64,000 nucleotides of DNA from an uncultured virus (IMG/VR IMGVR_UViG_3300020325_000015) (lineage: Duplodnaviria > Heunggongvirae > Uroviricota > Caudoviricetes). How positions within the stretch are numbered: position 1 is the stretch's first letter; each line of letters begins with the position of its first letter. The stretch is taken from the IMG/VR virus record IMGVR_UViG_3300020325_000015; one strand, written 5' to 3'. Under the pieces are notes generated by a model. The model did no database searches and was not told the DNA's origin. It saw only the letters and a program-made list of their open reading frames with translations. Positions 41,818 to 57,659 of the stretch are shown here, in pieces. A program made the position numbers and the translations under genes.

Positions 41818-42234
41818 ATGAGTAAAATAGAAAATTGTATTGGTAGTGGAGTTAAAATAACTCAAGTTGAATTCAACATTGGTCTTAATGGTCATATGTA
41901 TACTGAAAATGGTGTTGCAACTTTATTAAGACAAGCTGGGTTTAAAATATATGACGATGCTTATTTTGTAGACAATGGTAAGTATTTAGGAAATGATGAA
42001 CCAACTTTTGTAGGTTTGACTTCAATAATTGCTTCTATAAAAGAAATAAAAGATAAAGTAAAAGATTTATGCGATATATTACAACAAGATTGTATTGCAA
42101 TTCTTATTGATAATTATAAAGGTAAATTAATATATAATAAAAGACATCTAAAGCAAGTACCTAAATTAAAATTTGATTCAGATTTGTTTATAGATGCATA
42201 TAATAAAGATAATTTTAATAAAAATTTTAAATAA
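41818..42234 (+). CDS. SAM lyase (T3 SAMase-like), putative anti-restriction protein
   Basis: GKY...EPTFV...LC...QQDCIAI...GKLIY parallels the T3 SAMase GCY...EEKTV...EQDCVLV...GLVY pattern (from memory). Confidence 0.6.
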   Translation: MSKIENCIGSGVKITQVEFNIGLNGHMYTENGVATLLRQAGFKIYDDAYFVDNGKYLGNDEPTFVGLTSIIASIKEIKDKVKDLCDILQQDCIAILIDNYKGKLIYNKRHLKQVPKLKFDSDLFIDAYNKDNFNKNFK

Positions 42235-42500
42235 TGAAAGATAAAAAATATATAACAGTTCTTGATTCAGAAAAAAGTAAAGTTTTTCAATATGAATTAA
42301 TAGAATGGTTTAAAAATACTGAAGATGCTGAACAATTTTTAGATGATAAAGGTCATAATATGACAAATTGTCAGTGGATGGAAACAAATGGTGAGATTAT
42401 AACTTTTAATCATAGCGATGATGTATTTGATTATGGTTATAAAAGAAATTTAGATAGATATGATATTAATACCGATGGAACAAGAGAAATCGTTGGATGA
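42234..42500 (+). CDS. early hypothetical protein
   Basis: 88 aa; YITVLD...V.QY...GH...NCQWM. Confidence 0.6.
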   Translation: MKDKKYITVLDSEKSKVFQYELIEWFKNTEDAEQFLDDKGHNMTNCQWMETNGEIITFNHSDDVFDYGYKRNLDRYDINTDGTREIVG

Positions 42501-42610
42501 TAACTGGTGCTATTATTGTAATAGCAAATATACATTAATAAAAACATCTAAAAACCATTATTTATGTATGAGTTGCGGATGTATAACTAAAACAAAATAA
42601 TTATGAAAAA

Positions 42611-42644
42611 TACGTTACAAACTAATATTGATGACGATAATATA
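42611..42644 (+). promoter_or_regulatory. promoter-like motif, copy 4
   Basis: TACGTTAC-N17-GATAATATA. Confidence 0.75.
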
Positions 42645-42838
42645 AGTAAAGAAATAATAAATATGTTTAACGAATTAGAAGTTGAAGATATAAATGAAAT
42701 AAATAAATTAAAAAATGTTTAATAAAGTAGAAAAAGAATTATTGACCGATATATTGCAAAATGCAATTAATAGCGATGACTATAAAAACTATGGGCCAGT
42801 AATAAAAAATATATACTATAAACTAAATTTAAAATAAT

Positions 42839-43033
42839 ATGAATAAATTTTGTAGATGTGGTTCAGTACTACACCCCGTAAGAATAGAATTAGGTTATAA
42901 TAAATGTGTGCAATGCTCTGACATTCAGCAAGTTAGTTATGTACCTATAATAGAACATAAAACTGGTAATAGTATTCAAATCGTATCGCAAGAATTAAGT
43001 AACTTAGTACATAAATCATGGCGAAGAAAATAA
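42839..43033 (+). CDS. DksA/TraR-type C4 zinc-finger protein
   Basis: CRCG..LHPVRIELGYNKCVQC. Confidence 0.55.
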   Translation: MNKFCRCGSVLHPVRIELGYNKCVQCSDIQQVSYVPIIEHKTGNSIQIVSQELSNLVHKSWRRK

Positions 43034-43048
43034 ATTTGCTATACATAA

Positions 43049-43082
43049 TACGTTACAAATTAAAATTAAAAACGATAATATA
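43049..43082 (+). promoter_or_regulatory. promoter-like motif, copy 5
   Basis: TACGTTAC-N17-GATAATATA upstream of ATG 43099. Confidence 0.75.
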
Positions 43083-43098
43083 ATAAAATTAAATAAAT

Positions 43099-43335
43099 AT
43101 GAATAAAATAGACTTAAAAAATTATGCAGATATAATAGATTTAAAAAATAATGTTGAACAACATATAGATACATTCTCAGTTGAATATGCTATTGAAAAA
43201 GTATATCCTAAACTTATGAAATCTAAAAAGTTTTCAGTTCAAAATGTAATTGACTATATGACAATCAAAATTATGGAATTAGATTCTAAAAAAGAATGGT
43301 TAAAAGATGAAATAGATGAAGAGTACGTTGATTAA
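43099..43335 (+). CDS. hypothetical protein
   Basis: 78 aa. Confidence 0.55.
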   Translation: MNKIDLKNYADIIDLKNNVEQHIDTFSVEYAIEKVYPKLMKSKKFSVQNVIDYMTIKIMELDSKKEWLKDEIDEEYVD

Positions 43336-43426
43336 AAAAAAGAAAAAATAAAAAAAATGTTCTATTAAAAATGTCAAAAGAACAAATTGAATTGTTTGAA
43401 ATAGAATATTGGAAACGATATAATAT

Positions 43427-43500
43427 TGCGCGGTAGAGCAGATGGTCAGCTCGCGAGTCTCATAAACTCGAGGTCGGTGGTTCGAGTCCACCCCGCGCAT
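43427..43500 (+). tRNA. tRNA-Met (CAT)
   Basis: acceptor TGCGCGG/CCGCGCA, D stem GAGC/GCTC, anticodon arm CGAGT-CTCATAA-ACTCG, T arm GGTGG-TTCGAGT-CCACC; no encoded CCA. Confidence 0.92.
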
Positions 43501-43504
43501 CTAT

Positions 43505-43691
43505 TGAAAACGAATATACCTGAACGCGGTACAATTTAAAATACCAATGCAATCAAACCGTCGTTTTCATATTGGAGGTAGTCAGGAAGCTAAGAACAGT
43601 CACAGCTTGAAATAATAGTGTACGACTGAGACGCGAAAGATGATATAAACAGTTATGCAATTGCATATCATTCCTAGTTTCATCCGCCTCC
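43505..43691 (+). ncRNA. two candidate structured RNAs between the tRNAs
   Basis: closing stems TGAAAACGA/TCGTTTTCA and GGAGGT/GCCTCC with internal hairpins. Confidence 0.45.
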
Positions 43692-43695
43692 TTAT

Positions 43696-43768
43696 GCGAA
43701 AATAGCTCAATTGGCAGAGCATTAGATTTCCAATCTAAAGGTTGTGGGTTCGATTCCCACTTTTCGCT
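43696..43768 (+). tRNA. tRNA-Gly (TCC)
   Basis: acceptor GCGAAAA/TTTTCGC with U73, anticodon arm TTAGA-TTTCCAA-TCTAA, T arm GTGGG-TTCGATT-CCCAC. Confidence 0.92.
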
Positions 43769-43788
43769 CTAACTTTAAATTAAATAAA

Positions 43789-44121
43789 ATGGATTATATA
43801 AATAAATTAGAAAAATACTTAAGCAACAAATATGATAGTATTGTTGTAATTAAAGACGATTTGAGTAACCCCGACTTAGAATTATCTGAGTGGTATACTG
43901 CTGATGATTATACATTATATGTTATGACAAACGACGCTAGAAACATTGATTGGGAAAATGATGTATATTATTATGAACCTCAATTTGATACTATTATGGA
44001 TAGAATAGAAGAAACATGTCACGATTTAGGTTATGGCAGTGAAGTAAGAATATATGTGGATGCTGAATCTTATTTGCCTGAACAAGAAGTAATTGAATGG
44101 CTAGAACAAAAAGAAGATTAA
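43789..44121 (+). CDS. highly acidic protein (start MDYINK)
   Basis: the ORF-track GTG start lies inside the tRNA; ATG at 43789. Confidence 0.6.
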   Translation: MDYINKLEKYLSNKYDSIVVIKDDLSNPDLELSEWYTADDYTLYVMTNDARNIDWENDVYYYEPQFDTIMDRIEETCHDLGYGSEVRIYVDAESYLPEQEVIEWLEQKED

Positions 44122-44122
44122 T

Positions 44123-44359
44123 ATGTTAAGAGAAAAACACTTAAAGCTTGACCACGACGATTTAAAAGGTCAAGCACTTATATACATTATGAGTAGACAG
44201 GGTCCTTTAAATGAAAAGATAAAATATTGGGAAGATATGACTCCTGACGCATTCTTTGGGCCTAGTAAAGAAGAGATAGCTAAGCAAGTTGAATGTTTAA
44301 CTAGAAAACAAAAACTGTTAAAATATATGTACACTATAATTGTAAACCATGACTCCTGA
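44123..44359 (+). CDS. hypothetical protein
   Basis: 78 aa. Confidence 0.55.
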   Translation: MLREKHLKLDHDDLKGQALIYIMSRQGPLNEKIKYWEDMTPDAFFGPSKEEIAKQVECLTRKQKLLKYMYTIIVNHDS

Positions 44360-44642
44360 AGATTTAGAAAAACTAGCACAATTAGTAGCAGATAAAATCT
44401 TAGAAGAGTTTGATGCTAGAGTACAGCAGAACTTTAAACCTATGACTCCTAAAGAATTCTTTGAAGCTGAGGTTGATGGTTTTGGAAATATAAGACATCC
44501 TTCTAAAAAAGATATGTTGAAAGCTCAGCTATTAGATTTAGAAGCTAAACGAGCTAAGTTATTAGCCGACGAAAAATATGAATTAGTAATAGAATTAAAT
44601 GAAATATATGAAAGAATTAAAAAAGAATATGACAAACTTTAA
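44349..44642 (+). CDS. hypothetical protein with C-terminal UVR-like coiled coil
   Basis: L...EKYE...L..I motif. Confidence 0.5.
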   Translation: MTPEDLEKLAQLVADKILEEFDARVQQNFKPMTPKEFFEAEVDGFGNIRHPSKKDMLKAQLLDLEAKRAKLLADEKYELVIELNEIYERIKKEYDKL

Positions 44643-45489
44643 CGTAATGTTAGCTAAAGAGTTCGACCCTATGCAGAGAAGGCTCGATATTAAAAACTTT
44701 ATACAACCAAAATTAGATGGTGTTAGATGCTATATAACTAAAGACGGTGCATTTAGCAGAAACCATAAACCATTTAAAAATTGTAAACACATTACAACTA
44801 CACTACAATCTTTCTTTAAAGATTATCCTGATAGAATACTTGACGGCGAGTTGTACAATCATAAATTTAAAAATGATTTTAACAAAATTATATCGCTTGT
44901 TAAAAAACAAAAACCAACACAAGCTGATAAATTTGAATCTGCAATGTATTTACAGTTTCATTGCTACGACCAATTTATTCCAACTATATCTCAAAATGGA
45001 TTTAATCTTATTCCTTTTATAACAAGAAGTAATAGAATTAAAGGTTATAAAGAATATTATAAGTGGCGTTCAATTAAAACAGTTCCTACATATGAAGTTA
45101 CTTCAGATACAGAAATAAAAGACTATCATAATGAGTTTAAAGATTTAGGTTATGAAGGTTCAATACTTAGATATAATACTGCTTATGAAACTAAACGAAG
45201 TAATAATCTGATGAAAATAAAAGACTGGTCAGATACTGAAGCAACTATTACAGGTTATGTTGAAGGCAGAGGTAAATTTGCTAAAGGTCTTGGCAAGTGG
45301 CTAGCTGTTGATAAAGACGGTAGAGAAGTTGAAATACCTTGGCCTACATTATCTATTAGAAATAGAAGAGAAATGTGGCAAGCTAGAAATAGATATATAG
45401 GTAAAGTATTAACATTTGAATTCTTTGAAAGAACTCCAGCCGGAGCTTACAGATTTCCAAGAGCTAAAACAATCAGAAACTATGAGTAG
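44629..45489 (+). CDS. ATP-dependent DNA ligase
   Basis: KLDGVR, LDGELY, YEGSILR, LMKIK, RFP motifs; likely start MTNFNVMLAK. Confidence 0.9.
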   Translation: MTNFNVMLAKEFDPMQRRLDIKNFIQPKLDGVRCYITKDGAFSRNHKPFKNCKHITTTLQSFFKDYPDRILDGELYNHKFKNDFNKIISLVKKQKPTQADKFESAMYLQFHCYDQFIPTISQNGFNLIPFITRSNRIKGYKEYYKWRSIKTVPTYEVTSDTEIKDYHNEFKDLGYEGSILRYNTAYETKRSNNLMKIKDWSDTEATITGYVEGRGKFAKGLGKWLAVDKDGREVEIPWPTLSIRNRREMWQARNRYIGKVLTFEFFERTPAGAYRFPRAKTIRNYE

Positions 45490-45733
45490 CATATCTATAG
45501 CATCTTTCTTTGCACTAACTGCATACTTAGTTTGTATTCTTGGCGATACATTTAAACGTAACTTACTGATACTCATGCCTATAATGTTTATACTTGATGG
45601 CACAGCAGTAGCTGTAATTGCGTATATAGTTCAAATAAAATTGCCGATTGCGGTTGGTATTTTATTTGGTACAGTATTAAAAGTAATTGTATTTTTATTA
45701 TACCAAAAGCATTTTAGAAATGAGTCTAGGTAA
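45482..45733 (+). CDS. membrane protein
   Basis: three hydrophobic segments; start MSSISIA. Confidence 0.55.
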   Translation: MSSISIASFFALTAYLVCILGDTFKRNLLILMPIMFILDGTAVAVIAYIVQIKLPIAVGILFGTVLKVIVFLLYQKHFRNESR

Positions 45734-45874
45734 ACTAATAATAAATAATAAAACTTATATAATTAATACTGATGTTTCTCATAAAGTACAAGAAGCAACT
45801 ATCAACTCTATTATTGATAGTTATCCTAATTGTGAATGGGAATGGCACGATGAAATAAATTTTAAAGACGTAAT

Positions 45875-46033
45875 ATGAAAAAAACAAGAACATTAAAAAA
45901 GCTTAACATAGGTGTAAAAATTAAATTTAAGCCTTATAAAATCGGTGAGATACCAAAAGGATTTGATAAACATAATCGAGATTGGGTATGGTTTAATGAT
46001 AAAGGATTAACTTGGATATATAAAATTGATTAA
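45875..46033 (+). CDS. 52-aa protein similar to 39212..39418, not in the ORF track
   Basis: MKKTRTLKK...WFNDKGLTWIYKID. Confidence 0.55.
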   Translation: MKKTRTLKKLNIGVKIKFKPYKIGEIPKGFDKHNRDWVWFNDKGLTWIYKID

Positions 46034-46132
46034 TATGAGTAAAAAAATATATACACATTTTATAAGAACAAATGCTTTTAAAATAGCAGATAAAATTAAA
46101 GCTGAAAGAAAAAGCAATAAGAAAAAACGTAG

Positions 46133-46918
46133 ATGAAAAATTTTAATAAAAAAATATATTCATTAAATATTTCAACGCTTGAAAAAGTTAAGCAATCTAA
46201 TACAGATATTCCATTTGAATATTATAAGATGGCATTAAATATAGCTAATAGTTTTTCTAAAGATTATGGTGCTGTAGGTGTTGTTGATTTAAATGATTTA
46301 ACCCAAGAAGGTTATTTAGCTTTGTTAATATCATGGCGTAATATAAAATGGAATATAGTCAACGACATCAAGGATAAACTTGAAAAGCAAAAGACTATTT
46401 CTAAATATCTTAAAAAAAGTATTACTGGTATTCTTAAAGATAGAATAAAGGTTAATGCTGATGGCACTAAAAGACCTATTAAAGGTATATGGAGTAATGA
46501 GGAACAAAAGAAAATAACGGGTGGTTTTGGATATATAACAAAACTATTTCCACATTGGTTTGATACATCTATTATCAATATGGTCGATGAAGAGGTTTAT
46601 GAATATAGTTATGATAAATTAGGTGAGTATTTAGATAGCTGGTCTAAAAAGTATTTACCTAAACATCATTTAATGTTAAAAATGTTTTTTGGTTTAGATG
46701 ATGTTTATTCTAAGCCTAAAAAAATGATTGATATTGCTAATTATTTTGGTATAAAAGTTGAGAATGTTAGAAAACAAAAGCAGCGTATATTAGCTAAGTT
46801 AAAATCTAATGAGCTGGCTTTAAAAGAGTTAGCACACTTCGTTGCTATACACGGAATAAAAAGCTCTTCACAAGTTCATTTATATGCTGAAAAACATTTA
46901 AAGATTTATCAAAATTAA
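46133..46918 (+). CDS. sigma70-family RNA polymerase sigma factor
   Basis: region 2 DLNDLTQEGYLAL; region 4 FGL...DIANYFGIKVENVRKQKQRILAKLK. Confidence 0.75.
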   Translation: MKNFNKKIYSLNISTLEKVKQSNTDIPFEYYKMALNIANSFSKDYGAVGVVDLNDLTQEGYLALLISWRNIKWNIVNDIKDKLEKQKTISKYLKKSITGILKDRIKVNADGTKRPIKGIWSNEEQKKITGGFGYITKLFPHWFDTSIINMVDEEVYEYSYDKLGEYLDSWSKKYLPKHHLMLKMFFGLDDVYSKPKKMIDIANYFGIKVENVRKQKQRILAKLKSNELALKELAHFVAIHGIKSSSQVHLYAEKHLKIYQN

Positions 46919-46962
46919 CGTCTCATAATACAAATTTTGTACTATATTAATTATGTACTCTT

Positions 46963-47298
46963 ATGAATAAATTTAAAACTAAATACCAATTTTTACCGTC
47001 TACAATAGACGAGATGCAATATATAAAACGAGATAACTCTGAGTCTATGCACAACGACCAGAACTTACATTTTAAAAATCCTAATTATACAGTTAGCCAT
47101 GTAAAAGCTATCTCAGGGTCTAAATATTTAAATATTAAATCTAACCGTTTATCGGGCAAGGGAGTTAATAAAGAAAAAAATATATACAAAGACATTGAAG
47201 TTGATAAAAGTTCATTTTGTGTTTTTGGTAAATTACATGATATACAACATAAAAGATTATTTAAAAAGAATAATATTATTTATGATTTAATTTCATAA
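46963..47298 (+). CDS. hypothetical protein
   Basis: 111 aa. Confidence 0.5.
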   Translation: MNKFKTKYQFLPSTIDEMQYIKRDNSESMHNDQNLHFKNPNYTVSHVKAISGSKYLNIKSNRLSGKGVNKEKNIYKDIEVDKSSFCVFGKLHDIQHKRLFKKNNIIYDLIS

Positions 47299-47300
47299 AA

Positions 47301-47334
47301 TACGTTACAAACTATGAAAGCTCTCGATAATATA
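47301..47334 (+). promoter_or_regulatory. promoter-like motif, copy 6, upstream of the recombination/replication operon
   Basis: TACGTTAC-N17-GATAATATA. Confidence 0.75.
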
Positions 47335-47422
47335 AATAGCGAAACTAATTATGTAATAGGTGATGGTATTATAACTTATTACAAAAATGGATTATATACC
47401 GGTTATAAAATAATTGAATCAA

Positions 47423-47989
47423 ATGAATATAAGAGAAAAATTAAGTAAAATACAATTTGAATTTAAAGCCAAAAAATCAAGATATAATTCTTTTGGCAAA
47501 TACAACTTCAGGTCAGCTGAAGATATACTTGAAGCATTAAAACCATTTAATGATAAGTATGACGTACATTTTACAGTTGAAGAAAATTTAACCACTGGTG
47601 AATTTCCTATAATACATTCAGCTGCTAGAATTATAGATAATAAATCTGGTGATAAGATTTTAGCTACAGCAATAGTAGGTGTTGATTTACAAGCAAAAGG
47701 CCAACAAATGCCACAAAGATTTGGAAGTGCATCATCGTATGGTAAAAAATATGCACTTGGTAATCTGCTGTTAATTGATGATACAGCTGATTCTGACGCT
47801 ACTAATCAACATAATTATTCTAATAAGGTACAAACATTAAAGAATAAAATTAAAGCTTCTGAAAAGCCTTCTATTGATTCCAATAATTTAGCTCAAGCTA
47901 AAAAGTTTTTAGCAAATGGCGGATTAATGAAAACTCTTGAAGACAAATATACAATTTCTGAAGATGTCAGAACACAATTGAGTGAATAA
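47423..47989 (+). CDS. Erf-family single-strand annealing protein
   Basis: FGKYNFRSAEDIL, GSASSYGKKYAL..L..IDD..D.D. Confidence 0.85.
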   Translation: MNIREKLSKIQFEFKAKKSRYNSFGKYNFRSAEDILEALKPFNDKYDVHFTVEENLTTGEFPIIHSAARIIDNKSGDKILATAIVGVDLQAKGQQMPQRFGSASSYGKKYALGNLLLIDDTADSDATNQHNYSNKVQTLKNKIKASEKPSIDSNNLAQAKKFLANGGLMKTLEDKYTISEDVRTQLSE

Positions 47990-48713
47990 AAAAGAAATAC
48001 TTGAAAGGTTAAAAGATGATGAACATTATTATGGCGATTTTGGTAAAAAGTTTTTATCAAATAGTGATATTAATGCTTTAATTAACAATCCTATTAACTT
48101 TAAAAAAGAAACAAAACCCAGTACAGCATTAGTTATTGGAGGATATTTTCACACATGTATATTAGAACCTAATAAATTAGATAAGTATAAAATTATACCA
48201 ACAACCAGCAGAAATACAAAACTATATAAAGAATTATCTGATGGTGATATTTGTTTATTAGAAAAAGAAGCAGATGAAATTGCGTTAATGCGTGATAAAG
48301 TTTTAAGTATTGATTTATTTAAAGAATTAATACAAGAAGGAAAGGTTGAATATGAACAACCCGGAATAGTTGAATTAGAATCTTTACTATGGAAAGGTAA
48401 AGCGGATATTGTAAATCATAGTCAACAATTATTAGTTGATTTAAAAACTACAAGTAATATCTCTTCTTTTCATAGTTCAGCTTACAAGTTTAACTATGAC
48501 AGCCAAGCATATATTTATAGTAAAATGTTTGGATATGAGTTAGTATTTATTGTAATAGATAAATCAACTCATCAATTAGGTCTGTTTGATTGTAGCGAGG
48601 ATTTTTTACAATCAGGACAGAATAAAGTGGCTAAGGCAGTACAAGCTTATAACGAATTTTTTGTTGATAGTGGTGTTGACCTTAACCAATATTTTTTAAC
48701 TAAAACACTTTAA
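47982..48713 (+). CDS. PD-(D/E)XK exonuclease (RecE/DUF3799-like)
   Basis: G..FH..ILEP, KGKADI, DLKTT, Y..QAY.Y. Confidence 0.8.
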   Translation: MNKKEILERLKDDEHYYGDFGKKFLSNSDINALINNPINFKKETKPSTALVIGGYFHTCILEPNKLDKYKIIPTTSRNTKLYKELSDGDICLLEKEADEIALMRDKVLSIDLFKELIQEGKVEYEQPGIVELESLLWKGKADIVNHSQQLLVDLKTTSNISSFHSSAYKFNYDSQAYIYSKMFGYELVFIVIDKSTHQLGLFDCSEDFLQSGQNKVAKAVQAYNEFFVDSGVDLNQYFLTKTL

Positions 48714-48722
48714 TTTAATTTT

Positions 48723-48890
48723 ATGGCAAGAACTAGAAAAAGAACTTGTGATGTAACAGGAGTCACGACGAGTATGAATAATTTTTATACTAATCAATCT
48801 CATGTAAAAGCTGTAGATAATATAAGAAGAACTACTGGAGCTAGTAAAACGCAGCTTAGAAGAATGTTTAATCAAATATCTACATATTAA
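48723..48890 (+). CDS. 55-aa basic protein (MARTRKRTCDVTG...), not in the ORF track
   Basis: fills the gap between exonuclease and SSB genes. Confidence 0.55.
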   Translation: MARTRKRTCDVTGVTTSMNNFYTNQSHVKAVDNIRRTTGASKTQLRRMFNQISTY

Positions 48891-48891
48891 T

Positions 48892-49212
48892 ATGGCAAGT
48901 ATTATATCTGGTAATATAAATTTATCTAAAATAAATAAAGATAAAATTTATGAAGGCAAAAAGGGTAAATACTATCCAGTTACCGTCGTTATAAATAACG
49001 AGGTTGGTGAATATGGTGATTCAGGCTATATAATGACTGAACAAACTAAAGATGAAAGAGATGCAAGTATACCTAAGGAATATTTAGGTAACGTTAAAGT
49101 CATATGGACAGACGGCCAAAATGTTGATACAACTAATAAAAATGTTGCATCACCGGCACCTGCTGCAAATACTTTTGAGTCTAAGTCTAACGAACCAGAT
49201 TTACCATTCTAA
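48892..49212 (+). CDS. single-stranded DNA-binding protein
   Basis: OB-like body and acidic C-terminal tip DLPF. Confidence 0.7.
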   Translation: MASIISGNINLSKINKDKIYEGKKGKYYPVTVVINNEVGEYGDSGYIMTEQTKDERDASIPKEYLGNVKVIWTDGQNVDTTNKNVASPAPAANTFESKSNEPDLPF

Positions 49213-50921
49213 TGAACAAAACCGAGATTAATGGTTTTCAGATTGATACATTCAATCAATATAAATTAGAGGTTGGCAAGCGAGAGGGTATATGCCCTCT
49301 TTGCTCTGCTAATCGTAAACCACAAAATCGTAAAGCTAAATGTGCTATGTACGATTGGGATAGAGGTCTTGGTACATGTATGAATTGTAATGAAGTATTT
49401 CAATTACATACGTTCAAAAGAAAAGGTGGTAACGATAAAGTTTATACTAAGCCTAAAACAATAGCCAATCCACTTTTAAGTAATAAAGTAATTAAGTGGT
49501 TTGAGAGTAGAGGTATATCAAATAATACTTTAGTAAAGATGAAAATTACTGAAGGTAAAGAATGGATGCCTCAAACTGGAAAAGAAGAGAATACAATACA
49601 ATTCAATTACTTTATTAACAATGAATTAATTAACATAAAGTATAGAGATGGTAAGAAAAATTTTAAACTGGTTAAAGGAGCCGAAAAGATCTTCTACAAT
49701 ATTGATTCTACTATTGGTCACGAGTATGTGGTTATTGTGGAAGGAGAGATTGATGCTTTATCTCTTGTTGAGGTGGGCGTCAAATCTGTCATTAGTGTAC
49801 CAAACGGAGCTACAGTTAGCAACAATAACCTTGACTACTTGGACAGCTGCATCGATTATCTCGATGGAAAAGAAAAAATCATTATCGCAGTTGATCAAGA
49901 TGAGGCAGGAGAAAATCTTAAGCAAGAACTTATTCGGAGACTCGGAGCTGAGGCGTGTTATACGGTGGACTTCGGAATTCACAAAGACGCTAATGATTTT
50001 CTGTTACACAACAGCAGCGCTAAGCTCAATGATGTTATTAAAAACGCTAGCCCTGTTCCTATTGAAAACGTAGTAACGTTAAATGATATTGATGATGAGC
50101 TGCAGGAATTTATTCATGAAGGATTCAAACCTGGTTATCAAATTGGTCTTGATAATTTTGATAATATATTTTCAACTTATACAGGTCAGTTTATTACAGT
50201 AACAGGTGTACCAAGTTCAGGTAAATCTGATTTTGTAGATAGAATGATTGTTGGTTATCAACAAAAGTATGGCTGGAAAACAGCATTTGCATCTCCAGAA
50301 AATAAACCTACATTCTTACATGCACATAAGCTAATGCGTAAGATTGGTAATTGGATGCCAAATAAAACTGATATAGGTTCAGATAAATGGAATGAAGTTG
50401 CAAATATTGTAAATGATAATTTCTTTTTCATTGAAAATGAAAGATATGATTTAGATTCTGTATTGAATAAAGGAGCGCAGCTCGTTAAAAGAAAAGGTAT
50501 TAAATGTTTAGTTATAGATCCATATAATAAAATTAAAATGAATGGAGCTGCTAGCATGAGTATACCTGATGCAACTATGGAATATTTAACTCGTATAGAA
50601 GCATTTGCTAAAAAGTTTGATGTACTTGTTATTGTAGTTGCACACCCAACTAAAATGTATAAAAAAGAAGATGGTACAATTGATGAACCAAATATGTACA
50701 ACATTAAAGGTGGCGGTGAATGGTATGATGCTTCATATCATGGCTTACTTGTTCATCGCGATTATAATAAAAAAACCGTCAAAGTTAAGGTGCTTAAAGT
50801 AAAGTTTCAAAACTTAGGTGAAAACCAAGCTGAAGCTCATTTTAAATGGGATCATATTAGTGGAAACTATATACCTGTATTTGATGTATCAAATGATATT
50901 ATGCCATGGGAAGCGGATTAA
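49212..50921 (+). CDS. primase-helicase (T7 gp4/Twinkle-like)
   Basis: Zn finger CPLC...CMNC, TOPRIM EGEIDALS/DQD.AG, Walker A GVPSSGKS, VIDPYN, VAHP. Confidence 0.92.
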   Translation: MNKTEINGFQIDTFNQYKLEVGKREGICPLCSANRKPQNRKAKCAMYDWDRGLGTCMNCNEVFQLHTFKRKGGNDKVYTKPKTIANPLLSNKVIKWFESRGISNNTLVKMKITEGKEWMPQTGKEENTIQFNYFINNELINIKYRDGKKNFKLVKGAEKIFYNIDSTIGHEYVVIVEGEIDALSLVEVGVKSVISVPNGATVSNNNLDYLDSCIDYLDGKEKIIIAVDQDEAGENLKQELIRRLGAEACYTVDFGIHKDANDFLLHNSSAKLNDVIKNASPVPIENVVTLNDIDDELQEFIHEGFKPGYQIGLDNFDNIFSTYTGQFITVTGVPSSGKSDFVDRMIVGYQQKYGWKTAFASPENKPTFLHAHKLMRKIGNWMPNKTDIGSDKWNEVANIVNDNFFFIENERYDLDSVLNKGAQLVKRKGIKCLVIDPYNKIKMNGAASMSIPDATMEYLTRIEAFAKKFDVLVIVVAHPTKMYKKEDGTIDEPNMYNIKGGGEWYDASYHGLLVHRDYNKKTVKVKVLKVKFQNLGENQAEAHFKWDHISGNYIPVFDVSNDIMPWEAD

Positions 50922-51199
50922 CAGGTTCTAAAAAGAAAGATGCATATAAAATGCCACCGCATAATGCATCTAATGAACAAATGAAATGGCAAAAATATTG
51001 TATAGATAATAATATAAGAATATCACCTTATGGTATTAATAATGAACCGGGTAAATGGAAAATAGCAATTGCATTAGGCTCATATAAAAAAGGTGAAAAA
51101 ATATATTATGCGCCAAATGTATATGATAAATATTCTATTTGGTCTGAATATTATGAAATGTGTAAATACTATTATGATAAACATACAAGACGAATATAG
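50906..51199 (+). CDS. hypothetical protein
   Basis: 97 aa. Confidence 0.6.
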   Translation: MGSGLTGSKKKDAYKMPPHNASNEQMKWQKYCIDNNIRISPYGINNEPGKWKIAIALGSYKKGEKIYYAPNVYDKYSIWSEYYEMCKYYYDKHTRRI

Positions 51200-51989
51200 A
51201 AGCTTATTAGCTGGTGTATTATATAACGGTAAAGATAAGGAAGATCGAACAGGTACTGGTACTAGATCAGTATTTGGTAGAATGATAAAACACGATATGG
51301 CCTTAGGCTTTCCACTATTAACAACTAAAAAAATATATTTTAAACATGCAGTTACGGAATTATTATGGATTCTTCAAGGCCGTACTGATATGCATTACTT
51401 GCAGTCAAACGGTGTTAATTACTGGAATCCTGATTATGAAAGATCAGGTAGATCTGATGGTACGCTTGGTCCTGTTTACGGCAAGCAGCTTAGGGACTTC
51501 AATGGCGTTGATCAGCTTAAAAGAATACTCATCCAAATTAAAAACAACCCAAGCTCGCGGCGCATTATGGCAAGCTTATGGAATCCCAACGATTTGGCTG
51601 ATATGGTGTTGCCACCTTGCCACTATGGCTTTCAAGTATATATAAATGATGGCAAACTTAATCTTATGTGGCAGCAACGATCAGTTGATGTATTTCTTGG
51701 TTTACCTTATGATATTGCAATGTACGGTTTATTACTTCAGTTGTTGGCTGAAGGATCTGAATATGCTAAAGGCCAACTTATCGGTTGCTTTGGTGATTGT
51801 CATTTGTATAATAACCATATTGATCAAGCCAAACAACAATTGGATAATGATTTTAGGGAATTGGCTAGGGTTGATTCTTCTTGTGGAATTAGTATTATTA
51901 ATGAAGAAGTAATATTACCTGAAGCAAATATGATTAAATTAATAAACTATAATCCTCATCCACCAATTAAAGCAAAATTAAATACTTAA
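51174..51989 (+). CDS. thymidylate synthase-family enzyme with Asn-to-Asp specificity change, candidate dCMP methylase
   Basis: DRTGTGT, ELLW, GPVYG, SRR, LPPCH, QRSVDVFLGLPYD, HLY; likely start MINIQ at 51174. Confidence 0.85.
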   Translation: MINIQDEYRSLLAGVLYNGKDKEDRTGTGTRSVFGRMIKHDMALGFPLLTTKKIYFKHAVTELLWILQGRTDMHYLQSNGVNYWNPDYERSGRSDGTLGPVYGKQLRDFNGVDQLKRILIQIKNNPSSRRIMASLWNPNDLADMVLPPCHYGFQVYINDGKLNLMWQQRSVDVFLGLPYDIAMYGLLLQLLAEGSEYAKGQLIGCFGDCHLYNNHIDQAKQQLDNDFRELARVDSSCGISIINEEVILPEANMIKLINYNPHPPIKAKLNT

Positions 51990-51991
51990 AT

Positions 51992-52321
51992 ATGAAAAAA
52001 CTATTATTACTATTACTATTACCAATATTTGCATATTCGCAAATGGAACAAATATTATCAAGGCCTATATTTTTACATGATGGCACTGAAGCTACACTAA
52101 TAAGTTCTGATTTACCTTATGGTACTATAATACAAACAGGAGTTATTATAGATAGAATAAATGCACCTGATGATATAAGTGCTATAAATGATTATAACTT
52201 TTATAGAGATGAATCTTATTTTAATTGGAATTCATTATTCAGTAATGAAATTGGTAAAGGTGTAATAAAAACTAGAAGTGGACAATATTATTTAATTAAC
52301 TTATATGGAGACAATTATTAA
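51992..52321 (+). CDS. secreted/periplasmic protein
   Basis: signal peptide MKKLLLLLLLPIFAYS|Q. Confidence 0.6.
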   Translation: MKKLLLLLLLPIFAYSQMEQILSRPIFLHDGTEATLISSDLPYGTIIQTGVIIDRINAPDDISAINDYNFYRDESYFNWNSLFSNEIGKGVIKTRSGQYYLINLYGDNY

Positions 52322-53069
52322 AAGCGGTAAATATAAAATATATCATATACCAGGAGTTAAGATTGGTTGTACAACTAATGTTAAAAAACGTGTTGAAGAA
52401 GAGCAAGGTTATAAACCTGGTGAATACGATATACTGTATGAAACAGATGATATAGTAGAAGCTTCTGAAGCTGAAAGAAATTTGCAAAAAGAACTTAAAT
52501 ATAAACCAGATATTAAATTATATAAAGATTTATTCCGTAAAAAAATGAATAAGCATAGCTCATCACAAGCAACAACAACATTTAAAATATCACCTAATGA
52601 TATTAATGCTGAATACTTAAGAGGTATTACACTAGAATTACCTGAAGGTACATTTGAATTAAATAATGAAGATTATATTGATTGGATATTAACTAATGTA
52701 CATGCAAGCCAGTTTGGGCCCGGTACGTGTTATATTTACAATAAAGCTTTTACTAAAGCATTTAAACCTAATGGCACATCAGCATTTAATAAAATAAGAG
52801 ATTGGGCTAAAGATCGTAACCTTTATCAAAAAGGTGATAGCAAGACTCAATATGTTAAATTAATGGAAGAAGCAGGAGAACTTGCACAAGCATTATTAAA
52901 ACAAGATAAAGCTGAAATAAAAGATGCTATTGGCGATATGGTAATAGTACTTGCTAATCTTTCAGAGCTTGAAGGATTTAAGATTGAGGATTGCATTAAC
53001 GATTCATTCAATGTAATATCAAATAGAACAGGTAAAATGGTTAACGGAACATTCGTAAAAGATGAGTAA
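52305..53069 (+). CDS. fusion of an N-terminal GIY-YIG-like domain and a C-terminal MazG-like NTP pyrophosphatase
   Basis: YKIYHIPGVKIGCT.N..KR...E; KLMEEAGEL...EIKDAIGD. Confidence 0.7.
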   Translation: METIIKSGKYKIYHIPGVKIGCTTNVKKRVEEEQGYKPGEYDILYETDDIVEASEAERNLQKELKYKPDIKLYKDLFRKKMNKHSSSQATTTFKISPNDINAEYLRGITLELPEGTFELNNEDYIDWILTNVHASQFGPGTCYIYNKAFTKAFKPNGTSAFNKIRDWAKDRNLYQKGDSKTQYVKLMEEAGELAQALLKQDKAEIKDAIGDMVIVLANLSELEGFKIEDCINDSFNVISNRTGKMVNGTFVKDE

Positions 53070-53313
53070 AATAAACGATAAAATAATTAATCGCGTAATT
53101 GATAAGATTCAAAAGCGTGCTGAAGCAGGTTATAAAAAGTATGGTGTTGGTTTAGATAAAGACGAACAATCACTTGATACTTGGCTTAATCATTTACAAG
53201 AAGAACTTATGGATGCTGCTAACTATATTGAAAAAATTAGAGCTGTATTAATTGAAGAAGATAAAAAGATAAGTAAATATCCTGAGTCTAGCTGGACACA
53301 GAGCACTACATGA
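53062..53313 (+). CDS. small all-alpha NTP pyrophosphohydrolase-like protein
   Basis: R...G.KKYG...WLNHLQEELMDAANY. Confidence 0.55.
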   Translation: MSKINDKIINRVIDKIQKRAEAGYKKYGVGLDKDEQSLDTWLNHLQEELMDAANYIEKIRAVLIEEDKKISKYPESSWTQSTT

Positions 53314-53762
53314 GAAGAAGTAAAAAGAGAGGCCCTGTACAAGCTAAAAAAATATCTTATGATGGGATTAAGTTTGCATCGGGCCTTGAAAGATATACTT
53401 ACATAGCTTTAAAAAAAAATAAATTGTTTGAAGGATATGAAAGCGAAACATTTGAATTAATAAATTCATTTCAATTTCCTAATACAAGTTATGAAAAGCA
53501 AGCTAATGGTAAAGGAGAATATATAAATAGAGGTACTAAAAAAATATTAGGTATAAAATATACACCTGATTTTATTGGTAAAGATTATATAATAGAATGT
53601 AAAGGAAGACCAAACGAATCTTTTCCTTTGCGCTGGAAATTATTTAAATTATGGCTCACGAAAAACAATATTGGAAAGATACTTTACAAGCCGCAAAATC
53701 AGAAGGAAGTGGATTTGACGATAACATTGATCAAAGAATCGAGAAAAAGAAAGCGCGGTTAA
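53310..53762 (+). CDS. T7 endonuclease I-like Holliday junction resolvase
   Basis: FASGLE, YTPDF, IECKG. Confidence 0.75.
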   Translation: MRRSKKRGPVQAKKISYDGIKFASGLERYTYIALKKNKLFEGYESETFELINSFQFPNTSYEKQANGKGEYINRGTKKILGIKYTPDFIGKDYIIECKGRPNESFPLRWKLFKLWLTKNNIGKILYKPQNQKEVDLTITLIKESRKRKRG

Positions 53763-54206
53763 TGTACACTAAAAGATTATTAGAAAAAGAAATTAAAAAA
53801 TTACTTAAAAATAAAATTATTAAATATGGAGAAATTGTTAGATTGCACAGAAAATACGGCGTTCAGTCTACAGGAACACTATAGCGAAAGAATATCTTTC
53901 CATATGAAAATGTTAAATTATTATTTAAATGAAAATAGCAGGGTGGGAAGTTAGTTTAGGTTTATATCCAGGTATTGTTATAGGTGTAAGAAGCTATCCG
54001 GAAAAAGATTTTATAGAGCATGTATTTTATTTACCACTTATAGAACTATGTATAACAGTGCATTATGAATGAAGAAGCTTTAGAAGCATACGCTAGGAAA
54101 CGGTATCCTAGAATATTTAAAAATAAACCTGTTATTATAACAGAGGAAGAAAATTTTATTACAATTAAATATAACAAGGACTCAAGTCCTATAATACTTA
54201 GTAAAG

Positions 54207-54422
54207 ATGTACAAACAATTATATGAAATGTTATTAAAGTCTGCTGAAGCAGATAAAACAAAAGCATTGCTTAGTTTAGATTTATTAAGCAATAAAGCTG
54301 CAGGTATTGGTGATCATTCAACTGATGATTATTATAAAAACGCAGAGCAAGCATTACAAATGTTAGTTGATGCCGACGATAGAATTAAAACACTAAATAA
54401 ATATTTTAATGAAGGAAGCTAA
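54207..54422 (+). CDS. hypothetical protein (GIGDHS motif)
   Basis: 71 aa. Confidence 0.6.
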   Translation: MYKQLYEMLLKSAEADKTKALLSLDLLSNKAAGIGDHSTDDYYKNAEQALQMLVDADDRIKTLNKYFNEGS

Positions 54423-54615
54423 GCTAATAGAAATGCGCAATAGAATTGAAACCATAGGAGCTGCAATGAATAGAGTTGTACAAGAACTTACTCATTTAAA
54501 AGATTTAAGTATTGGTACAATGGAATTAGTTAAGAAGCTACCTGGTTATGATAAAGCATTAGATGAATTAAAAGAACAATATAAGAAAAAGAAAACAGAT
54601 GAGTCTATTCAATGA
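54409..54615 (+). CDS. hypothetical coiled-coil protein
   Basis: 68 aa. Confidence 0.55.
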   Translation: MKEAKLIEMRNRIETIGAAMNRVVQELTHLKDLSIGTMELVKKLPGYDKALDELKEQYKKKKTDESIQ

Positions 54616-55567
54616 AAGAATACCTTATAAACCTTTTGAATATCCGGAATATTATACAGAAGGTTGGCTTAAACAAGCACAAGCTTTTTGGCTTCACACA
54701 GAGATACCAATGTCAGGTGACGTCAAAGATTGGAATGAAAAACTTACCAAGGCAGAGAAGAACTTGGTTGGAAATATACTTTTGGGATTTGCACAAACGG
54801 AGTGTGCGGTTTCTGATTATTGGACCCAAAAAGTTGTATCGTGGTTTCCTAAACATGAAATCCAACAAATGGCCATGATGTTTGGCTCACAAGAAACAAT
54901 TCACGCAGTAGCATATTCTTATTTAAATGAAACACTCGGACTCGAAAATTTCGAAGCATTCTTACACGAACCCGCCACGGCCCAGCGCTTCGATAATCTT
55001 GTTAGTTACTCTGGTAACGACCCTATTGGGATTGGCAGGTCTCTCGCTGTATTTTCTGCATTTGCAGAAGGCGTTAGTCTCTATTCCGCTTTTGCTGTGC
55101 TATATAGTTTTCAGTTGCGTAATTTGCTCAAAGGCATTGGCCAACAGATGAAATGGAGTGTAAGGGATGAGTCATTACATTCTAAAATGGGATGTCAACT
55201 ATTTAGGCATATGTGCCAAGAAATTAAAGGATTACAAAATGATTGCTATACACACGTTATTAAAGCAGCAAAAACAATGCTTAAAGCAGAGGAAAGATAC
55301 ATTGATAAAATGTTTGAACAAGGAGACATTGAAAACCTCAGTGCATACGACCTTAAACAATTTATCAGAAAACGTCTCAACGAAAAAATTGTTGAACTCG
55401 GTTACTCAAACAGTGGGGCCTACTTTGAATACGACAAAGTTGCAGCGAGCAATCTTGACTGGTTCTACCATCTTACCGGGGGGCACACTCATACTGATTT
55501 CTTTGCTGTTCGTCCGACTGATTACTCAAAAGCTAACGAAGGAGAAGATTTTGAAGATATTTGGTAG
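54599..55567 (+). CDS. nrdB: ribonucleotide reductase class I beta subunit
   Basis: ETIHAVAY, EGVSL, RDESLH di-metal ligands; DFF..RPTDYSK. Confidence 0.93.
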   Translation: MSLFNERIPYKPFEYPEYYTEGWLKQAQAFWLHTEIPMSGDVKDWNEKLTKAEKNLVGNILLGFAQTECAVSDYWTQKVVSWFPKHEIQQMAMMFGSQETIHAVAYSYLNETLGLENFEAFLHEPATAQRFDNLVSYSGNDPIGIGRSLAVFSAFAEGVSLYSAFAVLYSFQLRNLLKGIGQQMKWSVRDESLHSKMGCQLFRHMCQEIKGLQNDCYTHVIKAAKTMLKAEERYIDKMFEQGDIENLSAYDLKQFIRKRLNEKIVELGYSNSGAYFEYDKVAASNLDWFYHLTGGHTHTDFFAVRPTDYSKANEGEDFEDIW

Positions 55568-55924
55568 ATGAGAGTTTGTAATGTTTGTAAGAAAAAGAAA
55601 AAAGATCATAAATTTAAACACGCAGGTAAGAAAACTTGTATACGATGTGAGTTTAGGTGGAAACGATCTTTTATGCGTTTATTAGTTCAAGATAGAAGGC
55701 TTACAGCAAAAGAAAGAATTGCAAATAGATTAGGTTATATGGGTACGGCATTTATTATGATGTCACCATATTTACTAGCATACGAAGGTATAGGTGTTAT
55801 AACTTATATTATAGGTGGAATATTATCTATACCTCAAGTATGGGTTGCGAAACAATGGAACTTAGTATTAGTTAATTTAAATGTATCAATAGGATATTTA
55901 ATATATTATTTAAATGTGGAATAA
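55568..55924 (+). CDS. CxxC-CxxC zinc ribbon fused to a 3-TM PQ-motif membrane domain
   Basis: CNVC...CIRC; GYMGTAF..., SIPQVW..KQWNL. Confidence 0.55.
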   Translation: MRVCNVCKKKKKDHKFKHAGKKTCIRCEFRWKRSFMRLLVQDRRLTAKERIANRLGYMGTAFIMMSPYLLAYEGIGVITYIIGGILSIPQVWVAKQWNLVLVNLNVSIGYLIYYLNVE

Positions 55925-57659
55925 CAATTGGGTTAAAGGTAAAGATTATCCTTCATGGGGTGATAATGATGTTTACAAAAAAACTATATCAGGTGGTTAC
56001 CTTATAAATGGCGAATCACCTCGTGATGCTTACACACGTGTTGCTAAAACTGTAGCAAAACGTTTATATAAACCAGAACTTGCAGATAAATTTTTTGATT
56101 ATATATGGAAAGGATGGTTATGTTTAGCTTCTCCTGTACTTTCTAATACAGGTGCAGACAGAGGTTTACCTATAAGTTGTTTTGGAATAGATGTTGCAGA
56201 TAGTATACAGGATATAGGTAATAAAAATTTAGAAATGATGTTACTTGCAAAACACGGTGGGGGTGTAGGTATCGGAGTTAATATGATTCGTCCTGCCGGT
56301 GCTAAAATTACAGGTAATGGAACTTCAGACGGCGTTGTCCCTTTTTGCAAAATATATGATTCCACTATACTCGCGACCAATCAAGGTTCCGTTAGAAGAG
56401 GAGCTGCAAGTGTTAATATCAATATTGAACACGACGATTTTGAAGAGTGGCTTGAAATTAGAGAACCTAAAGGAGATGTCAATAGACAATCACTTAACTT
56501 GCACCAGTGTGCTGTCGTTGGCGATAAGTTTATGCGAAAGCTTGAACTCGGAGATCCCGAAGCAAGAAAAAGATGGTCAAAGCTTATACAAAAACGTAAA
56601 GCAACTGGAGAACCTTATATCTTATTTAAAGGAAATACAAACAAAGCTAATCCAGAAGCATATAAGAAAAACAGTTTAAAAGTTCATATGACTAATATAT
56701 GCAGTGAAATAGTATTGCATACAGATGAATCACATAGTTTTGTATGTTGCTTATCTTCTGTTAACTTAGATAAATATGATGAATGGAAAAATACAAACCT
56801 TATATATGATTCTACATGGTTTTTAGATGGAGTTCTTGAGGAGTTTATTCAGAAAGCTAAAAACATGAAGGGATTTGAAAATGCAGTAAGATCTGCTGAG
56901 AAAGGAAGAGCTTTAGGTTTAGGTGTACTTGGATGGCATAGCTTATTGCAAAAAAGAGGTATTGCTTATGAAAGTTTATTAGCACAGTTTAAAACACGTG
57001 AAATATTTTCAAAAATAAAAATTGAAACTGAACGTGCATCAAGAGCACTTGCTGAAATATATGGTGAGCCGCTTTGGTGTGTTGGCACAGGATTTAGAAA
57101 TACACATCTTCGCGCTATAGCACCAACTGTAAGTAATTCTAAATTAGCAGGTAATGTGTCACCGGGTATTGAACCTTGGGCTGCAAATGTATTTACAGAA
57201 CAATCTGCTAAAGGCACATTTATTAGAAAAAATAACGAACTTAAAAAAGTATTAAGAAAAATTGGGATTGATAACAAAGATACATGGGATAAGATACTTG
57301 CCGATGGTGGATCTGTTCAAGCAATCGATGCACTTAACGGATGGTTTTTTGACGAAAGATCAAGGCTTACTGAATTACCAGGAGGAGAGCCGGTTAAAAA
57401 CGTGTTCAAAACATTTAAAGAAATAAATCAACTAGAGTTAGTTAGACAAGCAGGTATAAGACAAGATTATATTGATCAATCAGTATCACTTAATCTTGCC
57501 TTTCCTTCTGAAGCTACCCCTCGTTGGATAAATCAAGTACATATGGAGGCGTGGAAGCACGGTATAAAAACCTTGTATTATATGCGTACTGAGTCTGTAC
57601 TGAGAGGTGACATAGCCGCAGCAGCTATGGATCCTAATTGTTTAAGCTGCGATGGTTAA
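55914..57659 (+). CDS. nrdA: ribonucleotide reductase class I alpha subunit (compact, no ATP cone)
   Basis: PISCF, NICSEI, APTVSNS, KTLYYMR, C-terminal CLSC. Confidence 0.95.
   Translation: MWNNNWVKGKDYPSWGDNDVYKKTISGGYLINGESPRDAYTRVAKTVAKRLYKPELADKFFDYIWKGWLCLASPVLSNTGADRGLPISCFGIDVADSIQDIGNKNLEMMLLAKHGGGVGIGVNMIRPAGAKITGNGTSDGVVPFCKIYDSTILATNQGSVRRGAASVNINIEHDDFEEWLEIREPKGDVNRQSLNLHQCAVVGDKFMRKLELGDPEARKRWSKLIQKRKATGEPYILFKGNTNKANPEAYKKNSLKVHMTNICSEIVLHTDESHSFVCCLSSVNLDKYDEWKNTNLIYDSTWFLDGVLEEFIQKAKNMKGFENAVRSAEKGRALGLGVLGWHSLLQKRGIAYESLLAQFKTREIFSKIKIETERASRALAEIYGEPLWCVGTGFRNTHLRAIAPTVSNSKLAGNVSPGIEPWAANVFTEQSAKGTFIRKNNELKKVLRKIGIDNKDTWDKILADGGSVQAIDALNGWFFDERSRLTELPGGEPVKNVFKTFKEINQLELVRQAGIRQDYIDQSVSLNLAFPSEATPRWINQVHMEAWKHGIKTLYYMRTESVLRGDIAAAAMDPNCLSCDG

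What the first reader, a model, noticed from the sequence alone, without database searches (positions are those of the whole stretch)
41818..57659. Candidate SAM-independent cytosine-modification plus SAM-destruction anti-defence system
Seen together: an early SAM-lyase-like gene (41818..42234), the Asp-type TS homologue, a GIY-YIG-like/MazG fusion (52305..53069), a second NTP pyrophosphatase-like gene (53062..53313) and RNR. No SAM-dependent DNA methyltransferase is visible. Established: T3 SAMase counters SAM-dependent restriction, and T4 combines a dCMP-modifying enzyme, a dCTPase and a GIY-YIG nuclease (EndoII) that cuts unmodified-C DNA. Inference: this phage removes SAM, methylates cytosine at the nucleotide level using folate, depletes dCTP and may degrade unmodified host DNA. 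Gaps: no dNMP kinase, DHFR or DNA polymerase was recognised, so host enzymes would be needed.
Basis: inference. Interest (0 to 1): 0.85.

Follow-up and report, generated by a model that had tools for sequence, protein, structure and literature searches.

The report
Swappable cytosine-modifying cassette in marine phages
An uncultured marine phage carries a two-gene unit, a cytosine-methylating enzyme plus a nuclease-pyrophosphatase fusion, that probably fills its DNA with 5-methylcytosine to dodge host restriction; the SAM-destroying gene nearby is a separate accessory, not part of that unit.

Summary
All the named genes are real, but the five-part system is not. The core is two genes: an Asp177 ThyA homologue (predicted dCMP methylase) and the GIY-YIG/MazG fusion. 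All 231 distinct fusion proteins sit behind an Asp-type enzyme, drawn from three separate lineages (two ThyA-like, one T4-gp42-like) that swap in one slot 17-19 times on trees of 167 loci. One clade lost both genes together. Its complete genome has purged GGCC (0/15), GCGC (1/15) and CCWGG (1/20). None of 24 cassette-bearing genomes has; 17 of them, this one included (0/11), instead avoid GATATC, whose enzyme cuts C5-modified DNA. That is indirect support for modified DNA. The SAM-lyase-like gene (top fold match 6zm9, catalytic motif kept) occurs only in four close records and was missing from 48 other genomes searched. The second pyrophosphatase-like gene survives cassette loss. No kinase, deaminase or polymerase was found, and substrates are untested. 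Verdict: a new variant of the Xp12/T4 strategy.

The parts
51174..51989 (+). ThyA-like predicted dCMP C5-methylase (E. coli numbering: Asp177, Tyr176, Leu143, Cys146, His147 kept); core gene 1
   Evidence: PF00303 E 7e-85; alignment to solved ThyA; Asp in 80 of 80 nearest loci; 10 of 10 flavobacterial ThyA read have Asn
52305..53069 (+). GIY-YIG-like (T5orf172) domain + unnamed middle domain + MazG-type pyrophosphatase; core gene 2
   Evidence: Y13, G21, R29, E57 and E188, E189, E192, D211 each at 100% (rounded down) over 232 aligned rows; lost together with TS
51992..52321 (+). Accessory ORF between the two core genes; not part of the unit
   Evidence: no hit in 80 related loci; contigs in 3 of 4 runs join across it
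53062..53313 (+). Small conserved helical protein with an EELMD motif; pyrophosphatase-like by motif only; backbone gene, not coupled to the cassette
   Evidence: kept in all 7 loci lacking TS and fusion; weak homologues (34%) in Elemovirus and MW202828
41818..42234 (+). Probable SAM lyase; early-region accessory gene, not coupled to the cassette
   Evidence: top structural match 6zm9, Z 9.2, rmsd 6.0, 107 aligned, tied with ACT folds; G54-x-Y56, E61, Q90-D91 match Svi3-3 G56/Y58/E69/Q104/E105; distribution
49212..50921 (+). Primase-helicase; fixed upstream anchor of the slot
53310..53762 (+). DUF1064/resolvase-like nuclease; fixed downstream anchor
54599..55567 (+). NrdB, ribonucleotide reductase small subunit; backbone
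   Evidence: present in cassette-less loci
55914..57659 (+). NrdA, ribonucleotide reductase large subunit; backbone
   Evidence: present in cassette-less loci

Best explanation
The phage puts C5-modified cytosine into its DNA before replication, using a two-gene cassette. The Asp177 ThyA homologue methylates dCMP with methylene-tetrahydrofolate (inferred from residues; Leu143 points to methyl, not hydroxymethyl). The MazG domain of the fusion removes dCTP and returns dCMP (inferred). Its GIY-YIG domain may nick DNA with unmodified cytosine, as T4 EndoII does (inferred, weakest step). Host kinases, DHFR, ThyA and polymerase do the rest (inferred from their absence in the phage). The first gene is exchangeable with another ThyA-like lineage or a gp42-like hydroxymethylase (shown). 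The SAM lyase is an independent accessory (shown by distribution).
For: Asp at 177 in 80 of 80 TS-anchored loci, in 78 of 78 fusion-anchored loci with upstream DNA and behind 231 of 231 distinct fusions. Three lineages fill one slot and swap 17-19 times against about 63 for shuffled labels. TS and fusion are both present in 67 and both absent in 7 of 74 primase-anchored loci; complete genome G044 lacks both. G044 has GGCC 0/15, GCGC 1/15, CCWGG 1/20 against codon shuffles; the window has 51/27, 31/35, 31/36; the lowest GGCC ratio in 24 cassette genomes is 10/25. GATATC is at or under half of expectation in 17 of 24 and not in G044 (12/13). EcoRV cuts 5hmC DNA; HaeIII and HhaI cut neither 5mC nor 5hmC DNA (PMC7653180 supplement). 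Five of seven tested Asp177 phage enzymes made 5mdC (bioRxiv 2024.12.05.627091).
Against: No chemistry was done. His147 is kept, whereas position 147 separates modified from unmodified contigs in PMC8670742 and Xp12 has Pro there. Two of seven tested Asp177 enzymes gave no 5mdC. No dNMP kinase, deaminase or DHFR was found, unlike Xp12. The cassette-less control is one clade with one complete genome, enriched by how I seeded the search, and a different host could explain its sites. G044 does not avoid CCGG (41/26), and also avoids CATATG and AGTACT, which C5 modification does not fully block; BstNI cuts CCWGG in Xp12 DNA. GATATC is not depleted in 7 of 24 cassette genomes and is depleted in cassette-less Elemovirus (0/5). 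G042 avoids AGSCT (13/69). The MazG fold ties among enzymes for dGTP, dCTP, dUTP and PR-ATP.
Confidence: 0.68

Rival explanations
1. One reading: SAM destruction and SAM-independent methylation act as one conserved anti-defence unit with both pyrophosphatases and RNR.
For: All genes lie in this genome. The SAM-lyase fold and motif fit. All four records with the gene also carry an Asp-type TS, and the two functions are chemically compatible.
Against: The gene is in 4 of 42 records, in 0 of 48 further records, and in 2 of 24 fetched genomes by unfiltered profile search. It sits with either TS lineage. The second pyrophosphatase-like gene and RNR survive cassette loss.
Confidence: 0.08
2. The Asp enzyme serves nucleotide supply: it makes dTMP, directly from dUMP or through 5m-dCMP deaminated by the host. 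The MazG domain is a dUTPase or general cleaner, and phage DNA is unmodified or only lightly modified.
For: The enzyme is about 45% identical to ordinary ThyA with His147 kept. No phage kinase was found. Similar MazG domains occur in 1165 phage records.
Against: The same slot holds a gp42-like enzyme with Asp at 143 and 177 in 109 of 231 cases. No Asn form was seen beside any fusion. All 28 flavobacterial genomes searched already have ThyA. The restriction-site contrast needs another cause.
Confidence: 0.17
3. The GIY-YIG domain is a selfish, homing-type endonuclease that drives exchange of the neighbouring TS allele; the cassette's linkage reflects gene drive rather than a host-DNA-cutting role.
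For: TS alleles swap next to the GIY-YIG gene between near-identical backbones, e.g. L044/L283 at 98% primase identity. GIY-YIG homing enzymes at T4 td are textbook (recalled).
Against: The domain is always fused to an intact MazG and is conserved without decay over 232 rows. TS type changes about as often on the fusion tree (17) as on the primase (19) and resolvase (17) trees, so fusion and TS allele do not travel as one selfish unit.
Confidence: 0.07

Closest known systems
Xanthomonas phage Xp12 5-methyl-dCMP pathway (ThyA homologue QNN97214, MT664984)
   Same: Asp177 ThyA homologue with the same LPYD motif; RNR and ligase in the genome; Xp12 has no GATATC, TGATCA, ATGCAT or GAATTC site.
   Different: 25% identity and a separate long branch. 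Xp12 has dCMP deaminase and DHFR beside its TS and Pro at 147; here there is neither, His147 is kept, and the partner is a GIY-YIG/MazG fusion.
Phage T4 hydroxymethylcytosine system (gp42, gp56 dCTPase, gp1 kinase, EndoII/DenA)
   Same: dCMP-modifying TS homologue, NTP pyrophosphatase and GIY-YIG nuclease; relatives carry a gp42/MilA-like enzyme in the slot. [quoted passage not shown]
   Different: Nuclease-like and pyrophosphatase domains are one polypeptide. No kinase, glucosyltransferase or polymerase was found. The GIY-YIG domain is T5orf172-type and gave no sequence match to EndoII in the PDB.
MetaGPA virome TS / PRA-PH / deaminase clusters (PMC8670742; bioRxiv 2024.12.05.627091)
   Same: Asp177 TS co-occurring with a PRA-PH/MazG-type domain on contigs with modified cytosine.
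   Different: Those clusters centre on a deaminase or carbamoyltransferase; the passages read mention no GIY-YIG fusion.
Phage SAM lyases (Svi3-3 PDB 6zm9, Orf1, T3 SAMase)
   Same: Top structural match and the G-x-Y, E, Q-acid residues.
   Different: 17% identity; no PF23780 match; model of low confidence (pLDDT 61).

Membership tests
Xp12-type dCMP C5-methylase | Asp at E. coli ThyA position 177 | tested here: met
Xp12-type dCMP C5-methylase | Hydrophobic residue at 143 (methyl, not hydroxymethyl; rule from PMC13326640 section 24) and catalytic Cys | tested here: met
   MVLPPCH
Xp12-type dCMP C5-methylase | Non-His residue at 147 | tested here: not met
   His kept; Xp12 has Pro
Xp12-type 5mC pathway | Linked dCMP/dCTP deaminase and DHFR | tested here: not met
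   none among window proteins scanned or in relatives; PF00383 in 0 of 5 genomes with 12 of 14 controls ringing
Xp12-type 5mC pathway | 5mC replaces C in virion DNA | not testable with these tools
   only an indirect restriction-site signature
T4-type hmC system | gp42-like enzyme with acidic 143 and Asp177 | tested here: not met
   not in the window; met in relatives such as G042
T4-type hmC system | Phage dNMP kinase and DNA polymerase | tested here: not met
   no such cluster in 16 genomes; PF02223 in 0 of 5; a divergent kinase cannot be excluded
GIY-YIG nuclease superfamily | Tyr, Gly, Arg and Glu core in a two-strand, two-helix arrangement | tested here: met
   T5orf172/MUG113 in 9 of 13 members; Y13, G21, R29, E57 invariant; the second motif reads KIG
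EndoII-like host-DNA nuclease | Cuts unmodified-C DNA, blocked by C5 modification | not testable with these tools
   needs an assay
MazG-like NTP pyrophosphatase (fusion C-terminus) | Helical fold with EExxE...D metal site | tested here: met
dCTPase | dCTP preferred over 5m-dCTP, dUTP and (p)ppGpp | tested here: inconclusive
   fold matches tie across substrates
MazG-like NTP pyrophosphatase (53062-53313) | Family profile match | tested here: inconclusive
   no named family; motif resemblance only; not folded
Phage SAM lyase | Fold plus Gly-x-Tyr, Glu, Gln-acid residues | tested here: met
   the Z-score is tied with ACT domains, so the motif carries the weight
Phage SAM lyase | SAM cleaved to MTA and homoserine lactone; trimer | not testable with these tools
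   needs an assay

The most novel reading that the evidence does not exclude
A large family of uncultured marine flavobacterial podophages replaces its cytosine using only two genes. One polypeptide does the work of both T4 dCTPase and EndoII and recognises unmodified C whatever the C5 group, so the phages can flip between 5mC and 5hmC by swapping one upstream gene, probably to escape modification-dependent restriction. They need no kinase because Flavobacteria lack a canonical thymidylate kinase and use a broader pyrimidine kinase.
Probability: 0.25. Interest if true: 0.78.

Novelty: new variant of a known kind. Interest (0 to 1): 0.55.

Why it matters
It would be the smallest pre-replicative cytosine-substitution module I know of (own knowledge), in a phage family with more than 500 matching stretches in IMG/VR scans and seen in marine runs from several studies. 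The three exchangeable enzymes and a natural deletion clade give a ready test of how 5mC versus 5hmC trades Type II against Type IV restriction. The near-canonical ThyA is a natural version of the engineered N177D enzyme. The fusion is a candidate nuclease selective for unmodified cytosine, useful for methylome work if real.

Tried and rejected
SAM lyase as part of the unit: rejected on distribution. The PF23780 search rang in no genome and no control, so it says nothing. Sequence searches of the PDB for the SAM lyase found nothing; the Atlas gave only a 0.86 lead with PF23780 on 16% of members. Second pyrophosphatase-like gene and RNR as cassette parts: rejected. A structural match of the GIY-YIG domain to solved structures was not seen, because the MazG domain filled the lists; BFVD gave one weak GIY-YIG row (E 0.03). 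The terminase-anchored scan returned mostly short fragments; of five longer records, four had TS and fusion and one 68%-complete record had neither, which is uninformative. CpG and GC content did not separate the groups. RNA contigs of two runs from one study cover the region but cannot rank genes or prove transcription. No cultured phage holds the full-length fusion (0 of 1165 matching records cover 80%). The TS tree is the quick one; the careful search did not finish. Paper searches for the fusion, for this phage family with modified cytosine, for the His199/N229D work, for a missing flavobacterial thymidylate kinase and for site avoidance found nothing that describes this cassette; the library lacks most subscription papers, and supplements of the bioRxiv preprint were not seen.
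Full report
Setting. The window is most of a roughly 64-kb phage genome: structural genes, GroEL and GroES on the minus strand, early and replication genes on the plus strand. Its terminase matches 87 phage records, 86 of them named for Flavobacterium, Cellulophaga, Tenacibaculum or Maribacter, with Elemovirus at 46%. A flavobacterial host is therefore inferred. Twenty of 24 listed runs, from 13 studies, hold the stretch or part of it and are marine; three may be the source. No assembly is held for the window itself.

Observation. The TS starts at 51174. It keeps Glu58, Trp80, Tyr94, the Arg-Arg pair, Leu143, Cys146, His147, Arg166 and Asp169 of ThyA (E. coli numbering from my own knowledge and the alignments), but reads PYD where ThyA reads PFN. 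Ten of ten flavobacterial ThyA genes read have PFN. Among the 150 nearest 50%-identity representatives, 130 have Asn and about 15 have Asp. The fusion has T5orf172/MUG113 and MazG domains; its model (pLDDT 84) matches MazG enzymes at Z 9-10 without telling the substrate. The gene at 53062 has no named family. The gene at 41818 has no sequence match to solved structures, but its model (pLDDT 61) ranks the phage SAM lyase 6zm9 first among 48,161 chains (Z 9.2, rmsd 6.0, 107 aligned, tied with ACT folds). It also carries G54-x-Y56, E61 and Q90-D91, matching the Svi3-3 residues named in PMC7877911 (passages read).

What travels together. The best 80 of 170 TS relatives all have Asp and are all followed by the fusion and the 53062 gene. 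Genome G042, whose SAM-lyase-like gene is 95% identical to the window's, has a different enzyme in the same slot: 215 aa, DTPCT and RSNDLWYGFCND, closest to MilA and T4 gp42. Of its best 80 relatives (of 590), 79 have the GIY domain next door and none showed the SAM lyase within the flank held. Anchoring on the fusion, 78 of 80 loci have upstream DNA and all 78 hold an Asp enzyme: 52 ThyA-like and 26 gp42-like. Pooling, 289 full-length fusion ORFs gave 231 distinct proteins: 109 behind gp42-like, 105 behind the window's type and 17 behind a third ThyA-like type with Tyr or Cys at 147. All have Asp; one pattern miss was re-read by eye. Twenty-three loci were dropped because my MazG pattern missed them or they were broken or cut. 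The three types are separate groups on a quick tree. On trees of 167 loci the type changes 19, 17 and 17 times (primase, fusion, resolvase) against about 63 for shuffled labels, and backbones 96-100% identical in primase differ in type.

What does not travel with it. In a primase-anchored scan seeded with a cassette-less locus, 74 of 80 loci span primase to resolvase: 67 have TS plus fusion and 7 have neither, yet all 74 keep the 53062 gene. Five gp42-like rows were mis-parsed; four were re-read as Asp and L398 was not. The 7 are one clade. Its complete member G044 has no PF00303 and no fusion match, while sisters G045 and G046 have both. The SAM-lyase-like gene was found in 4 of 42 records, by profile in only the two positive controls among 50 records, and in 2 of 24 fetched genomes by unfiltered search, with the next hit at E 0.07. 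Its carriers have either TS type.

Indirect evidence that the DNA is modified. If cytosines carry a C5 group, sites for enzymes blocked by it need not be purged. Against synonymous-codon shuffles (25 each, coding DNA only), G044 has GGCC 0/15, GCGC 1/15 and CCWGG 1/20; Elemovirus (33 kb read) has GGCC 0/9 and CCGG 0/4; the ThyX-bearing relative MW202828 has CCGG 0/24 and CCWGG 4/21. The window has GGCC 51/27, GCGC 31/35, CCGG 49/30 and CCWGG 31/36, and none of 24 cassette genomes falls below 10/25 for GGCC (a Markov version of 18 of them agrees). The window lacks GATATC (0/11), and 17 of 24 have half or less of expectation, whereas G044 has 12/13. In the supplement of PMC7653180 (parts 1 and 2 of 3 read, plus passages) HaeIII, HhaI and HpaII cut neither Xp12 (5mC) nor T4gt (5hmC) DNA, EcoRV cuts T4gt completely, and Xp12 has no EcoRV site. 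Against this: the control is one clade and may have another host; G044 keeps CCGG (41/26) and also avoids CATATG and AGTACT; BstNI cuts CCWGG in Xp12; Elemovirus also avoids GATATC; 7 cassette genomes do not; and G042 avoids AGSCT.

Mechanism. Shown: gene content, residues, linkage, swapping, co-loss and site counts. From papers: Asp177 switches TS to dCMP (PMC8670742, passages); Leu versus acid at 143 separates methyl from other C5 products (PMC13326640, abstract and section 24); five of seven Asp177 phage enzymes made 5mdC when co-expressed with T4 kinase (bioRxiv 2024.12.05.627091, passages); T4 EndoII nicks unmodified-C DNA (PMC2764454, passages). Inferred: the window's enzyme makes 5m-dCMP (about 0.75); the MazG domain clears dCTP (about 0.55); the GIY-YIG domain attacks unmodified DNA (about 0.35). 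The invariant Y13, G21, R29 and E57 argue that the domain is kept active. The open gap is phosphorylation. No kinase or deaminase was found in 16 clustered genomes or by family search of five. In 28 Flavobacteriales genomes, Cmk and ThyA were strong in all, but the thymidylate kinase model gave only weak hits (23 of 28, best E 7.5e-8, mostly in 375-450-aa frames), and Bacteroides was the one control of 14 not ringing. A broader host kinase is thus a lead, not a result. His147 is a real concern for catalytic efficiency.

Comparison and novelty. It works like Xp12 for the base and like T4 for the accessory logic, but fails membership of either full pathway (no deaminase, DHFR, kinase or polymerase). 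Asp177 phage enzymes beside PRA-PH/MazG domains are in print, and earlier notes of this scan flagged both module types on other genomes. Paper searches showed no description of the fusion, the slot swap or this family's modification, within a library that lacks most subscription papers. Verdict: new variant of a known kind, interest 0.55.

Noticed in passing
G054-G081 (28 Flavobacteriales genomes): No strong canonical thymidylate kinase match; only weak hits, mostly in 375-450-aa frames, some on the same contig as thyA. Cmk is present in all 28.
   Followed up: partly
window 51992-52321; L124:2832-3242: The gap between TS and fusion takes variable inserts: a 109-aa ORF here that other strains lack, a CAP-domain gene in G015, G035 and G039.
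   Followed up: partly
G049:C1:57718-58504: The fusion matches as two adjoining pieces in separate frames: a split gene or a frameshift.
   Followed up: no
window 55568-55924: Gene between nrdB and nrdA with CxxC pairs and a hydrophobic C-terminus; homologues in 12 of 16 genomes, no family match.
   Followed up: no
window 33464-35044, 33213-33467, 18317-18889: GroEL, a small GroES-like ORF and a second GroES-family gene are core in 16 of 16 genomes.
   Followed up: no
window 21787-22389: 2OG-Fe(II) oxygenase (PF13759, TIGR02466) among tail genes; not a Tet/JBP match and not among the widely shared clusters.
   Followed up: partly
16 clustered genomes (window and L093-L152): No DNA polymerase recognised, although primase-helicase, SSB-like, Erf, exonuclease and RNR genes are core; the ligase is patchy.
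   Followed up: partly
L101:3109-3606; L133:927-1529: Several relatives carry a pyrimidine-dimer-glycosylase-like gene and a GP88 gene in the early region.
   Followed up: no
window 43427-43501 and 43696-43769: tRNA-Met (CAT) and tRNA-Gly (TCC) genes.
   Followed up: no
L348 (Bacteroides phage BF503P2): Cultured phage with two genes annotated as dCMP hydroxymethylase, one 45% identical to the gp42-like allele: a possible laboratory stand-in.
   Followed up: no
G111, G117: These cassette genomes lack CATATG (0/13, 0/16), a site whose enzyme cuts 5hmC DNA.
   Followed up: no
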